This document shows, piece after piece, positions 24,644-39,520 of a stretch of 64,000 bases of DNA; within the stretch, counting starts at the first letter, position 1; the number at the start of each line of letters is the position of its first letter. A model generated the notes under the pieces. It saw only the letters and a list, made by a program, of their open reading frames with translations, searched no databases and was not told the origin of the DNA. The stretch lies in the NCBI RefSeq assembly GCF_009914755.1, contig NC_060929.1; one strand, written 5' to 3'. Source of the DNA: the human T2T-CHM13v2.0 reference genome, Homo sapiens. Both the position numbers and the translations under genes were made by a program.

Positions 24644-24768
24644 AGTAGTTGGAGATGGAGCCTGAAAAATCTATTCCAATCCTAAACCACTAGTTAAACA
24701 AAAGGAAATGGTGGAGTTAAAAATGGGCTATCTACTTTTTGTTTTTTTCCACTTATATTCCATGGATT

Positions 24769-24995
24769 TTTTTTTTTTTTTTTGAGATGGAGTCTCGCTC
24801 TGTCACCCAAGCTGGAGTGCAGTGGTGCGATCTTGGCTGACACTTGCCACCACGCCCGGCTAATTTTTTGTATTTTTAGTAGAGATGGGGCTTCACCACG
24901 TTAGCCAGGATGGTCTCGATCTCCTGACCTTGTGATCTGCCCGCCTTGGCCTCCCAAAGTGCTGGGATTACAGACGTGAGCCACTGCCCTTGGCT
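24769..24995 (-). mobile_element. AluSc/Y-like with internal deletion, inserted into the poly(A) of L1 #1
   Basis: GTTAGCCAGGATGGTCTCGATCTCCTGACC diagnostic; right-monomer segment missing at ~24840; poly-T on both sides. Confidence 0.9.
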
Positions 24996-27900
24996 TTTTT
25001 TTTTTTTTATAATTTAAGTTCTGGGATACATGTGCAGAACGTGCAGGTTTGTTAAATAGGTATACATGTGCCATGGTGGTTTGCTCCACCCATCAACCCA
25101 TCATCTACATTAGGTATTTCTCCTAATGTTATCCCTCCCATTGTCCCCCACCCCCAAACAGGACCTGGTGTGTGATGTTCCCCTCCCTGTGCCGTGCATT
25201 CTGATTGTTCAACTCTCATTTATAAGCGAGAACATGTGGTGTTTGGTTTTCTGTTCTTGTGTTAGTTTGGTAAGAATGATGGTTTCCAGCTTTATCCATG
25301 TCCCTACAAAGGACATGAACTCATTCTTTTTTAGGGTATTCCATGGTGTATATGTGCCATGTCTTCTTTATCCAGTCTAACATTGATGGGCATTTGGGTT
25401 GGTTCCAAGTCCTTGCTATTGTGAACAGTGCTGCAATAAACATATGTGTGAGTGTGTCTTTATAGTAGCATGATTTATAATCCTTTGGATATATGCCCAG
25501 TAATGGGATTGCTGGGTCAAACAGTATTTCTGGTTCTAGATCCTTGAGGAATTGCCACACTGTCTTCCACAATGCTTTAATAATTTACTCTCCATCCACC
25601 AGTGTAAAAGCATTCCTATTTCTCCACATCCTCTCCAGCATCTGTTGTTTCCTGACTTTTTAATGAACACCATTCTAACTGGCATGAGATGGTATCTCAT
25701 TGTGATTTTGATTTGCATTTCTCTAAAGACCAGAGATGATGAGCATTTTTTCATATGTTTGTTAGCTGCATAAATGTGTTCTTTTGAGAAGTGTCTGTTC
25801 ATATCCTTCACCCACTTTTTGATGGGATTGTTTTTTTCTTGTAAATTTGTTTAAGTTATTTGTAGATTCTGGATATTAGCCCTTTGTCAGATGGATAGAT
25901 TGCAAAAATTTTCTCCCATTCTGTAGGTTGCCTGTTCACTCTGATGATAATTTCTTTTGTGGTGCAGAAGCTCTTTAGTTTAATTAGATCCCATTTTTCA
26001 ATTTTGGCTTTTGTTGCCATTGCTTTTGGTGTTTTAGTCATAAAGTCTTTGCCCATGCCTAAGTCCTGAATAGTATTGCCTAGGTTTTCTTCTAGGGTAT
26101 TTATGGTTTTAGGTCTTTAATCCATCTTGAGTTAATTTTTGCGTAATGTGTAAGGAAAGTGTCCAGTTTCAGTTTTCTGCATATGGCTAGCCAGTTTTCC
26201 CAACACCATTTATGAAATAGGAAATGTTTTCCCTATTGCTTGTTTTTGTCAGGTTTGTCAAAGATCAGATGGTTGTAGATGTGTGGTGTTATTTCTGAGG
26301 CCTCTGTTCTGTTCCATTGGTCTATATATCTGTTTTGATACAAGTACCATACTGTTGTAGTTACCGTAGCCTTGTAGTATAGTTTGAAGTCAGGTAGTGT
26401 GATGCCTCCAGCTTTGTTCTTTTTGCTGAGGATTGTCTTGGCTATGAGGGCTCTTTTTTTGGTTCCATATGAAATTTAAAGTAGTTTTTTCTAAGTCTGT
26501 GAAGAAAGTCACTGGTAGCTTGATGGGAATAGCGTTGAATCTATAAATTAGTTTGGGCAGTATGGCCATTTTCACGATACTGATTCTAACTATCCATGAG
26601 CATGGAATGTTTTTTTCTATTTGTTCGTGTCCTCTCTTATTTCCTTGAGCAGTGGTTTGTAGTTCTCCTTGAAGAGGTCCTTCACATCCTTTGTAAGTTG
26701 TATTCCTAGGTATTTAATACTCTTTGTAGCAATTGTGAATGTGAGTTTGCCTATGATTTGGCTCTCTGTTTGTCTGTTATTGGTGTATAGGAATGCATGT
26801 GATTTTTGCACATTGATTTTGTATTCTGAGGCTTTCCTGAAGTTGCTTATCAGCTGAAGGAGTTTTTGGGCTGAGATGATGGGGTTTTCTGGATATACAA
26901 TGATGTCATCTGCAAACAGAGACAATTTGACTTCCTCTTTTCCTATTTGAATACCCTTTATTTCTTTCTCTTGCCTGATTGCCCTGGCCAGAACTTCCAA
27001 CACTATGTTGAGTAGGAGTGGTGAGAGAGGGCATCCTTCTCTTATGCAAAGGGAATGCTTCCAGCTTTTGCTCATTCAGTATGATATTGGCTGTGGGTTT
27101 GTCATAAATAGCTTGTATTATTTTTTCAGATATGTTCCATCAATACCTATTTTATTGAGAGTTTTTTAGCATGAAGGGGCATTGAATTTTATCGAAGGCC
27201 TTTTCTGCATCTATTGAGATAATCATGCGGTTTTTGTCATTGGTTCTTTTTATGTGATGGATTATGTTTACTGATTTAGGTATGTTGAACCAGCCTTGCA
27301 TTCCAGGGATGGAGCCGACTTGATTGTGGTAGATAAGCATTTTGATGTGCTGCTGCATTCGGCTTGCCAGTAGTTTATTGAGGATTTTCGCATTGATATT
27401 CATAAGGGATATTGGCCTGAAATTTCCTTTTTCTGTTGTGTCTCCGCCAGGTTTTGGTATCAGGGTGATGCTGGCCTCATAAAATGAGTTAGGGAGGAGT
27501 CCCTCTTTTTCTGTTGTTTGGAGTAGTTTCAGAAGGAATGGTACCAGCTCCTCTTTGTACCTCTGGTAGAATTAGGCTGTGAATCCGTCTGATCCTGGGC
27601 TTTTTTTGGTTGATAGGCTATTAATTACTGCCTCAGTTTCAGAACTTGTTATTGGTCTATTCAGGAATTTGAATTTTTCCTGGTTTAGCCTTCAGAGAGT
27701 GTATTTGTCTAGGAAATTATCCATTTCTTCTAGATTTTCTAGTTTATTTGTATAGAGGTGTTTATAGTATTCTCTGATGGTAGTTTGTATTTCTGTGGGA
27801 TTGGTGGTGATCTCCTCTTTATCATTTTTTATTGCATGTATTTGATTCTTTTCTGTTTTCTTCTTTATTATTCTGGCTAGCAGTCCATCTATTTTGTTAA

Positions 27901-38900: not shown

Positions 38901-39368
38901 CTTTCCAGGGGAGTGAATGATTCTGTCTCACTGGTGTTCCAGGAGCCACTGGGGTATGAAAAAAAAACTCCTGCAGCTACCTTGGTGTCTGCCCAAATGG
39001 CCACTCTGTTTTGTGCTTCAAACCCAGGGCCCTGGTGTCGTAGGCACTCAAGCGAGTCTCCTGGTCTGTGGGTTATAAAGACGGTGGGAAGAGCATAGTA
39101 TCTGGGCCAGAGTGCACCCTTCTTCAAGGCACTGTTCCTCATGGCTTTCCTTGGCTAGGGGAGTGAGTTCCCCAACCCCTTGTGCTTCCCGGGTCAGGTG
39201 ATGCCTTACCCTGCCTTGCCCTGTGTGGGCTGCACCCACTCTCTAACGAGTCCCAATGAGATGAACTGGGTACCTCAGTTGGAAATGCAGAAATCACCTG
39301 CCTATTGCGTTGGTCTTGCTGGGAGCAGCAGACTGGAGCTGTTACCATTTGACCATCTTGCCCGGGGA
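32931..39368 (-). mobile_element. Full-length L1PA7/8-like LINE-1 #2 (inactive)
   Basis: 5'UTR ending GACCATCTTGCCCGGGGA; ORF1 ATG at 38022 (MRKNQYKKAKNSKNQ); EN, RT (LFADD) and 3'UTR fragments; A/TAA-rich tail at ~32931-32950. Confidence 0.97.
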
Positions 39369-39520
39369 TCCATGGATTCTTTTTAGTATATTTAGCAGTT
39401 AAAAATATTTTTGACATATTTATAGAAAGTAGTATCAATAACATTATTACTATTTAAATTTTGGAATTTGTTTTGGTAAGAACAAAATTTGAAGCTATCT
39501 AATGAAGATTGAAAGTCGAG

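What the first reader, a model, noticed from the sequence alone, without database searches (positions are those of the whole stretch)
24759..39384. One target-site duplication encloses two tandem full-length L1s plus a 1.4 kb spacer (14.6 kb composite insertion)
Seen: TCCATGGATTTTTTTT (24759-24774) abuts the poly(A) end of L1 #1, once the Alu in that tail is set aside. TCCATGGATTCTTTTT (39369-39384) abuts the 5' end of L1 #2. They match 15/16, and the right copy reads CT/AAAA on the element strand, an L1 endonuclease-type site. The inner L1 ends (31494 and ~32931) share no TSD with each other or with these outer ends. Established: TPRT insertions carry 7-20 bp TSDs. Inference: the outer ends come from one insertion event. 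Either (a) L1 #2 read through its poly(A), the spacer and a downstream L1 at a donor locus, giving a ~14 kb retrotransposed RNA with an ~8 kb 3' transduction, far longer than typical; or (b) an L1-spacer-L1 segment from elsewhere was recombined into a single resident L1.
Basis: partly seen in the sequence, partly recalled or inferred. Interest (0 to 1): 0.85.

Follow-up and report, generated by a model that had tools for sequence, protein, structure and literature searches.

The report
Two L1s within one target duplication
Two ancient full-length L1 retrotransposons and a 1.4 kb piece copied from chromosome 1 lie inside one target-site duplication in an ATG10 intron, probably because one L1 landed in the tail of the other rather than through one giant 14.6 kb insertion.

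Summary
TCCATGGATT plus a T-run abuts both the tail end of L1#1 and the 5' end of L1#2. The inner ends share nothing.

It has exactly one paralog, chr1:49391077-49392359, 90% identical. Homology stops at the first base of L1#1. The chr1 locus carries no L1 at either spacer border.

So no L1-spacer-L1 donor exists. That weakens both reader models: the 8 kb read-through and recombination with an L1-spacer-L1 segment.

The two L1s belong to the same old family and have indistinguishable ages. They are not duplicates of each other. Spacer divergence fits the same period.

Best reading (0.45):
- L1#2 inserted normally and made the TSD.
- A full-length L1#1 carrying 1.4 kb of chr1 sequence on its 5' end then landed in L1#2's A-tail. 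The appendage came by 5' transduction or template switching.
- An Alu later landed in L1#1's tail.

A single TPRT event with template jumps stays open (0.25). One genome cannot separate the two.

Separately, the two copies have been homogenised by gene conversion. About 1.6 kb differs by only 5 substitutions. Interest is moderate.

The parts
24759..24774 (-). Left copy of the target-site duplication (TCCATGGATT plus T-run). On the element strand it lies 3' of all the tails.
24775..24994 (-). Alu (internally deleted) with its own A-tail, inserted in the A-tail of L1#1.
   Evidence: Read directly. Matches Alu copies in the chr1 sample at 82-90%. The name Alu is by recall.
24995..25008 (-). A14 tail of L1#1.
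25009..31494 (-). L1#1: full length, ORFs broken. It begins with the complete family 5' terminus. It contains a 44-nt-arm inverted duplication at 29360-29455.
   Evidence: (RVT_1).
31495..32921 (-). Spacer. Positions 31496-32801 are a 90% copy of chr1:49391077-49392359. Positions 32802-32921 have no other copy in the genome.
32922..32943 (-). Tail of L1#2: A9(TAA)4T on the element strand.
32944..39368 (-). L1#2: near full length, ORFs broken. Its last 6 nt (39363-39368) do not match the family terminus.
   Evidence: (RVT_1, Exo_endo_phos).
39369..39384 (-). Right copy of the target-site duplication, with a TTTTT/AG cleavage-type site on the + strand.
26227..27815 (-). Near-identical gene-conversion tract, L1#1 side.
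   Evidence: 5 substitutions and 3 indels in 1597 alignment columns. One search gives the sliding identity.
34167..35757 (-). Near-identical gene-conversion tract, L1#2 side.

Best explanation
The composite was built by sequential retrotransposition into A-tails.

1. L1#2, a member of an old primate L1 family, inserted by ordinary target-primed reverse transcription. This created the 16-bp duplication AAAAAGAATCCATGGA (element strand).
2. Soon afterwards a second insertion landed in L1#2's fresh A-tail. It was a full-length L1#1 of the same family, carrying about 1.4 kb of chromosome 1 sequence on its 5' end. Its own TSD would be A-rich and therefore invisible.
3. The 5' appendage arose in one of two ways. 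Either it was a 5' transduction from a donor L1 at chr1:49392359/60 that was never fixed, or the reverse transcriptase switched from the 5' end of L1#1 RNA onto a chr1-derived RNA.
4. Later an Alu landed in L1#1's A-tail.
5. Much later, repeated gene conversion between the two tandem copies, 7.9 kb apart, homogenised their central parts.

Shown: the TSD, the chr1 origin of the spacer, the exact junctions, the absence of L1 at the chr1 borders, the independence and equal age of the two L1s, and the conversion mosaic.

Inferred: the order and number of insertion events, and how the spacer became attached.
For: **The TSD is real**.

**The spacer is an imported copy.**
- One search gave 41 matches. 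Only two span most of the query, itself and chr1. The other 39 cover only two old internal repeats.
- Identity to chr1 is 1170 of 1306 aligned columns.
- Homology ends within 1 nt of L1#1's first base.
- The chr1 flanks (267 and 775 bp) have no significant match anywhere in the window; best E is 0.003 over 38 bp.

**No L1 at the chr1 borders**. A read-through donor with two L1s does not exist in this genome.

**L1#1 starts with the complete family terminus**. This is expected for a full-length RNA or a genomic donor element.

**The two L1s are independent copies of one family.**
- The trees are star-like and the two are not sisters.
- In the 5' 1.5 kb they share 10 derived sites, rank 106 of 820 pairs.

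**Ages fit.**
- Non-CpG differences from the column majority: mid region 58 of 1295 (L1#1) and 69 of 1293 (L1#2). In the 3' 890 bp there are 39 and 41 private sites plus 7 shared, of 846.
- Spacer versus chr1 is 8.6% non-CpG, about 4.3% per lineage.

**Order of events.** Private substitutions summed over three regions are 157 (L1#1) against 190 (L1#2). By my arithmetic this is 1.8 SD in the direction 'L1#2 older'.

**A-tails at this locus demonstrably attract insertions.** The Alu sits in L1#1's tail.

**Precedent in print.** Near full-length L1s with foreign sequence on the 5' end, mapping to loci that have no L1, are described in 10.1101/2025.02.02.635956 (section 24 read).
Against: - No TSD for the second insertion can be identified.
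- The sequence next to the spacer is (TAA)4T, and this is not repeated after L1#1's tail. So the tail pattern must have arisen later, or the second insertion made little or no TSD.
- The two L1s are statistically the same age, which a single event predicts outright. The 157 against 190 difference is not significant.
- In the 5' 1.5 kb both L1s are more diverged than spacer dating suggests: 98 of 1365 and 116 of 1362 sites, or 7.2% and 8.5%.
- The intermediate state (L1#2 alone) has not been seen. No other primate genome was available.
- The published 5'-appended cases are mostly spliced exons of 100-odd bp. This is 1.4 kb of unspliced, repeat-bearing DNA.
Confidence: 0.45

Rival explanations
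1. One TPRT event with template jumps. Reverse transcription started on L1#1 RNA and copied it to its 5' end. It then jumped to a chr1-derived RNA for 1.4 kb, then to the poly(A) end of an L1#2 RNA, and copied that to within about 8 nt of its 5' end. The result would be 14.6 kb of cDNA in one TSD.
For: - One TSD encloses everything.
- Both spacer junctions fall on L1 RNA termini.
- No donor L1 at chr1 is needed.
- The two L1s are the same family and indistinguishable in age.
- Template switching is an accepted route to L1 chimeras (10.1101/2025.02.02.635956, passages seen).
Against: - It needs two jumps and two complete 6.4 kb copies in one event.
- In the described chimeras the L1 part is usually 5' truncated (same paper).
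- I found no tandem full-length L1 pair in one TSD in the papers read. My searches were not designed to be exhaustive on this point.
- L1#2 tends to be more diverged than L1#1 (157 against 190 private sites).
Confidence: 0.25
2. Reader's model (a). A single RNA read from L1#2 through its poly(A), the spacer and a downstream L1#1 at a donor locus, and was retrotransposed whole. This would be an 8 kb 3' transduction.
For: - The layout L1, pA, spacer, L1, pA, TSD is formally that of a 3' transduction.
- The spacer ends 16-17 nt after a TT/AAAG site on the element strand. That would suit the TSD of a donor L1#1 at chr1.
- chr1 has lost DNA at the other spacer border. The old repeat inside the spacer runs to about spacer position 1332, while chr1 homology stops at 1307. 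So a donor L1#2 there could have been deleted.
Against: - The only paralog of the spacer has no L1 at the L1#1 border, which is a clean empty site.
- No third copy exists in T2T-CHM13.
- It therefore needs two young full-length L1s, 1.4 kb apart on one haplotype, both since lost.
- The passenger L1#1 should be as old as or older than the driver L1#2. The trend runs the other way.
- In the one data set I read, L1 transductions measured 8-997 bp, median 63, though the method limited the maximum (PMC9311842, passages).
Confidence: 0.07
3. Reader's model (b), or another DNA-level route. A resident L1 with this TSD was rebuilt by ectopic recombination or repair. The template would be an L1-spacer-L1 segment, an excised circle, or a duplication with chr1 filler.
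For: The two copies clearly recombine with each other, as the gene-conversion mosaic shows. Double-strand-break repair can capture ectopic DNA (general knowledge).
Against: - No L1-spacer-L1 template exists.
- The spacer junctions coincide with L1 RNA termini to the base. A DNA breakpoint has no reason to do that.
- The inner ends carry no copy of the TSD.
- The L1s are not duplicates of one aged resident copy: 10 shared against 83 and 102 private non-CpG sites in the 5' 1.5 kb, rank 106 of 820 pairs.
- The spacer is not related to flank B (for the chr1 flanks).
Confidence: 0.08
4. Two unrelated L1 insertions on either side of a native spacer, with a chance TSD-like match.
For: None beyond the fact that the match contains a T-run.
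Against: - The 10-base non-repeat word sits exactly at both borders. At most 0.35% of random zone pairs do as well.
- Neither L1 has a TSD of its own; the inner pairs share 4-6 bases.
- Spacer homology to chr1 stops at the L1#1 border and does not resume in flank A.
Confidence: 0.02

Closest known systems
5'-appended (5' transduced or chimeric) near full-length L1 insertions, from Law and Burns 2025, bioRxiv 10.1101/2025.02.02.635956 (abstract, passages and section 24 read)
   Same: Foreign single-copy sequence is joined directly to the 5' end of a full-length L1. It maps to another chromosome where no matching L1 is present. As in the MAP3K13 case, the cause is either a lost donor or the joining of two RNAs.
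   Different: Here the appendage is 1.4 kb of unspliced, repeat-bearing DNA with no splice donor at the junction. The unit sits in another L1's tail, so its own TSD cannot be seen. I could not read the paper's supplementary tables, so I do not know whether this locus is listed.
L1 3' transduction (read-through past the L1 poly(A) signal). Population data from 10.1101/2024.04.18.590093 (passages) and PMC9311842 (passages).
   Same: The order L1, pA, extra DNA, pA, TSD is the same.
   Different: The extra DNA would be 8 kb and would contain a whole second L1. The parent locus has no L1 at the spacer borders.
Template-switch or RNA-ligation chimeras such as U6/L1 and tripartite chimeras. Described in 10.1101/2025.02.02.635956; PMC2104539 seen only in a search listing.
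   Same: Several RNA copies are joined head to tail in one orientation inside one TSD.
   Different: In known cases the parts are short and the L1 part is truncated. Here both L1 parts would be full length.
Retroelements nested in the A-tails of earlier retroelements (general knowledge, recalled; the Alu in L1#1's tail is an example in this window)
   Same: The insert has the same orientation, A-runs lie on both sides, and the outer TSD belongs to the first element.
   Different: The inserted unit is itself a 7.9 kb chimera of the same family and age as its host.
Gene conversion between nearby paralogous repeats (general knowledge, recalled)
   Same: Identity forms a mosaic with a near-identical core, while the flanks are as diverged as unrelated family members.
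   Different: Nothing unusual. The tract is long (about 1.6 kb) and recent for elements this old.

Membership tests
LINE-1 insertion by target-primed reverse transcription (outer structure) | 7-20 bp target-site duplication at both ends | tested here: met
   A 16-bp duplication matching at 15 of 16 positions, with a 10-base non-repeat core, exactly at both borders.
LINE-1 insertion by target-primed reverse transcription (outer structure) | Endonuclease-type cleavage site at the start of the TSD | tested here: met
   TTTTT/AG on the + strand at 39380-39386. The consensus TTTT/AA is recalled.
LINE-1 insertion by target-primed reverse transcription (outer structure) | Poly(A) at the 3' end; L1 coding remnants | tested here: met
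   A14 and A9(TAA)4T tails. RVT_1 in 2 of the 5 ORFs scanned and Exo_endo_phos in 1 of 5; 2 of 5 matched no family.
   The layout fits formally.
   The only paralog (chr1) has no L1 at either spacer border, and there is no third copy in T2T-CHM13. A lost allele cannot be excluded.
5'-appended L1 chimera or 5' transduction | Single-copy DNA from another locus abuts the 5' end of a near full-length L1 | tested here: met
   chr1 homology ends within 1 nt of L1#1's complete 5' terminus.
5'-appended L1 chimera or 5' transduction | One TSD encloses the appendage plus the L1 | tested here: inconclusive
   The unit is flanked by A-rich tail sequence on both sides, so no distinct TSD is recognisable.
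5'-appended L1 chimera or 5' transduction | The appendage and the L1 arrived together | tested here: inconclusive
   The spacer is about 4.3% diverged per lineage, against 4.5-5.4% for L1#1 in the mid and 3' regions but 7.2% in the 5' region. No outgroup genomes were available.
Nested insertion in an A-tail | An intermediate state (host element alone) exists in a lineage that branched between the two events | not testable with these tools
   No primate genomes are held.
Duplication of one resident L1 (DNA level) | The copies share the private mutations of the resident element | tested here: not met
   In the 5' 1.5 kb there are 10 shared against 83 and 102 private sites, rank 106 of 820 pairs. 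In the 3' 890 bp there are 7 shared against 39 and 41 private.
Gene conversion between paralogs | Mosaic of near-identical tracts between flanks as diverged as unrelated family members | tested here: met
   Identity per 200-column window is 78-86% in the 5' 1.6 kb. It is about 100% over 1.6 kb, with exact runs of 465, 429 and 237 bp, and falls to 85% at the 3' end.

The most novel reading that the evidence does not exclude
A single target-primed reverse transcription event wrote 14.6 kb: a complete L1, then 1.4 kb of an unrelated chromosome 1 transcript, then a second nearly complete L1. The reverse transcriptase would have made two end-to-end template jumps. That would make it far more processive and jump-prone in vivo than catalogued chimeras suggest.
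Probability: 0.25. Interest if true: 0.7.

Novelty: new member of a known kind. Interest (0 to 1): 0.4.

Why it matters
If the sequential reading is right, this is a tidy but ordinary example of three known things:
- A-tails act as landing pads.
- A full-length L1 can carry foreign DNA on its 5' end.
- Neighbouring repeats undergo gene conversion.

Its use is as a caution. One TSD around a composite does not prove one event.

If the single-event reading is right, it would be the longest and most complex L1 chimera I know of. It would bear on how often ORF2p jumps between templates in vivo.

Either way the locus is a clean case for comparative dating. Three states (empty, L1#2 alone, composite) make opposite predictions in monkeys and apes. 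The 1.6 kb near-identical tract predicts a recent, possibly hominin-specific, conversion event.

Tried and rejected
- **Last 131 bp of the spacer versus chr1.** I aligned them to the 777 bp that follow in chr1. The local score of 13.5 equals the mean of 200 shuffles, 13.6 +/- 1.8. A genome-wide search with the last 143 bp returned itself as the only match (1 match in all). This piece is untraceable. chr1 probably lost it, because the old repeat that crosses the break is complete in the spacer and cut in chr1.
- **Relative age of the two L1s.** I polarised their differences with family copies in three regions:
  - 5' 1.5 kb with 39 copies;
  - 1.5-2.9 kb with 22 of 29 copies (L015, L017, L019, L026, L028, L031 and L038 were dropped for incomplete coverage);
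  - 3' 890 bp with 20 copies.

  The result is 157 against 190 private sites, which is not significant. The family copies were chosen as best matches, so they are biased towards less diverged copies.
- **Subfamily split.** At sites where the two L1s differ, the other copies carry either allele about equally (48-57% L1#1 allele, Spearman rho 0.11 with divergence). The two belong to the same family.
- **chr1 copy as a retrocopy of the chr5 spacer (orphan transduction).** Rejected: the chr1 copy has no poly(A) or TSD at its borders.
- **L1#2 plus spacer as a 3' transduction, with L1#1 landing in a second tail.** Rejected: there is no A-run between the spacer and L1#1.
- **L1#2 landing at the 5' edge of an earlier spacer+L1#1 insertion.** Rejected: L1#2's flanks share only 6 bases.
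- **Gene context of the chr1 locus.** Not examined; no annotation is held for it.
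Full report
**What is there.**

On the + strand the order is as follows:

| Feature | Window position |
|---|---|
| Flank | up to 24758 |
| TCCATGGATT plus T-run (left TSD copy) | 24759-24774 |
| Minus-strand Alu with its tail | to about 24994 |
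| 14 T (L1#1 tail) | 24995-25008 |
| L1#1, reversed | 25009-31494 |
| Spacer | 31495-32921 |
| L1#2 tail, A9(TAA)4T on the element strand | 32922-32943 |
| L1#2, reversed | 32944-39368 |
| TCCATGGATTCTTTTT (right TSD copy) | 39369-39384 |
| Flank | from 39385 |

- Both elements carry L1 coding remnants. RVT_1 is found in each and Exo_endo_phos in L1#2. All ORFs are broken, the longest being 219 aa.
- L1#1 begins with the complete 5' terminus seen in many family copies. L1#2 begins about 8 nt inside it, after 6 unmatched nucleotides.

**Is the outer match more than chance?**

- The two outer junction zones share a 10-base non-repeat word at exactly the right places.
- The other five pairings of the four junction zones share 4-6 bases.
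- Of 20,000 random zone pairs in this repeat-rich window, 0.35% reach 10 bases.
- The right copy sits on a TTTTT/AG site.
- I accept it as a true target-site duplication. I also agree that neither L1 has a TSD of its own.

**Where the spacer comes from.**

- The window's genome could be searched. The spacer (1436 bases queried) has one long paralog, chr1:49391077-49392359, on the opposite strand. It matches at 1170 of 1306 aligned columns and covers spacer positions 2-1307.
- The other 39 matches cover only two old interspersed repeats inside the spacer.
- Homology begins within 1 nt of L1#1's first base.
- At that point chr1 continues with 267 bp of non-L1 DNA. At the other end homology stops inside an old repeat, and chr1 continues with 775 bp of unrelated unique DNA.
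- Neither chr1 flank matches anything in the window.
- The last roughly 130 bp of the spacer match nothing else in the genome. The old repeat that crosses the break is complete in the spacer but cut in chr1. The simplest reading is that chr1 lost DNA there after the copy was made.
- So the spacer is an imported copy of chr1 DNA whose ends are defined by L1 termini. The parent locus has no L1 at the L1#1 border.

**What the two L1s are to each other.**

- Overall identity is 83% in the 5' 2 kb and 94.6% in the remaining 4.4 kb.
- Sliding windows show a mosaic:
  - 78-86% in the 5' 1.6 kb;
  - 91-99% up to about 3.7 kb;
  - essentially 100% from about 3.7 to 5.3 kb, with 5 substitutions and 3 indels in 1597 columns and exact runs of 465, 429 and 237 bp;
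  - a decline to 85% at the 3' end.
- Both 5' ends hit the same genomic family, with best identities of 86% and 85%.
- With 39 family copies the tree is a star, and the two are not sisters.
- At sites where they differ, family copies side with one or the other about equally.
- Non-CpG sites in the 5' 1.5 kb show 10 shared-derived, 83 private to L1#1 and 102 private to L1#2. That level of sharing ranks 106 of 820 pairs.
- In the 3' 890 bp there are 7 shared, 39 private to L1#1 and 41 private to L1#2, of 846 sites.
- They are therefore two independent copies of one family, not duplicates of one aged element. The central identity is later gene conversion.
- Five substitutions in 1.6 kb is about 0.3%, which implies the last conversion was within the last few million years. 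This is an inference using recalled mutation rates.

**Dating.**

- Spacer versus chr1 is 8.96% over all substitutions and 8.6% at non-CpG sites. That is about 4.3% per lineage if split evenly.

| Region | L1#1 (non-CpG, from column majority) | L1#2 | Family copies |
|---|---|---|---|
| 1.5-2.9 kb | 4.5% (58 of 1295) | 5.3% (69 of 1293) | mean 5.4% |
| 3' 890 bp | 5.4% | 5.7% | mean 4.1% |
| CpG-rich 5' 1.5 kb | 7.2% | 8.5% | mean 5.3% |

- Except in the 5' region, the spacer and both L1s date to the same broad period. I put this at roughly 20-40 million years, using recalled neutral rates.
- Private substitutions sum to 157 for L1#1 against 190 for L1#2. By my arithmetic that is 1.8 SD, a trend towards L1#2 being older but not significant.

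**Mechanism.**

The junctions fall on L1 RNA termini and the inner ends carry no TSD copies. A DNA breakpoint has no reason to do either, so I take the assembly to be RNA-mediated. Three RNA routes remain.

1. *Sequential insertion.*
   - L1#2 inserts with this TSD. A spacer+L1#1 unit then lands in its fresh A-tail, and an Alu later lands in L1#1's tail.
   - The spacer+L1#1 unit is a known kind. Law and Burns (10.1101/2025.02.02.635956, section 24 read) report 17 mostly near full-length L1s with foreign 5' sequence. One maps to a gene that holds no such L1.
   - They weigh the same two origins that I do: a lost donor, or the joining or co-reverse-transcription of two RNAs.
   - On the element strand the spacer ends 16-17 nt after TT/AAAG. 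That would suit the TSD of a lost donor L1 at chr1, though such sites are common in AT-rich DNA.
2. *One event with two template jumps.* It needs no lost donor and explains the equal ages outright. It does need two complete 6.4 kb copies plus two jumps.
3. *Read-through of 8 kb.* It needs two young full-length L1s 1.4 kb apart on one chr1 haplotype, both since lost. The transductions I read about were 8-997 bp, in a method-limited data set (PMC9311842). [quoted passage not shown]

My rough prior reckoning, which is inference and not a computation, puts routes 1 and 2 within a small factor of each other and route 3 about a hundred-fold lower.

I commit to route 1 at 0.45, for three reasons:
- each step is individually documented;
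- the locus itself shows tail-targeting;
- the age trend points that way.

Against route 1, no TSD of the second insertion can be seen. The (TAA)4T next to the spacer is also not repeated after L1#1's tail.

**What one genome cannot settle.**

The number of events can only be read from primate orthologues of the chr5 site and of the chr1 parent site. No such genomes were available here. Repeat subfamily names could not be assigned either, since no repeat library is held. The names L1PA-type, Alu and SVA in this report rest on recall of what these repeats look like.

**Verdict.**

- The inference of one TSD is supported.
- The claim that one TSD means one event, and both proposed mechanisms, are not supported by the donor search.
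- This is most likely a new member of known kinds: a nested insertion of a 5'-appended L1, later homogenised by gene conversion. A real minority chance remains that it is an exceptional multi-template insertion.

Noticed in passing
window 26227-27815 and 34167-35757: The two tandem L1s differ by only 5 substitutions and 3 small indels over about 1.6 kb, although their ends are 11-17% apart. Recent gene conversion is layered on older, partly decayed tracts (91-99% identity between element positions 1.6 and 3.7 kb).
   Followed up: yes
window 29360-29455: L1#1 carries an inverted duplication near the end of ORF1 that L1#2 lacks: 44-nt arms, 98% complementary, 8 nt apart. It looks like a hairpin or snap-back repair scar.
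   Followed up: partly
window about 39510-43050 (+ strand): An SVA-like element lies about 130 bp beyond the right TSD. It has a CCCTCC-type hexamer run, then Alu-like sequence, and ends in poly(A). It is flanked by GAAAGTCGAG on both sides, apparently its own TSD. The family name is by recall.
   Followed up: partly
G000:C1:49388833-49394727 (loci L002, L011): On chr1 the spacer's parent sequence lies between two unrelated, younger-looking L1 fragments. Each has a 3' piece plus an inverted upstream piece, which is a twin-priming layout. Both point the same way as the L1s at chr5. This resemblance in layout appears to be coincidental.
   Followed up: partly
G000:C1:49391077 (break in homology): The old interspersed repeat inside the spacer is complete at chr5 but cut about 25 bp short at chr1, where unrelated unique DNA follows. 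chr1 seems to have suffered a deletion or rearrangement after the copy was made. The chr5 spacer may hold the only surviving copy of about 130 bp of ancestral chr1 sequence.
   Followed up: partly
window 30000-31494 and 37870-39368: In the CpG-rich 5' 1.5 kb both L1s are more diverged from the family majority (7.2% and 8.5% non-CpG) than 39 family copies (mean 5.3%). In the mid and 3' regions they are average. This is unexplained. Biased choice of comparison copies or a local rate effect are possible causes.
   Followed up: no
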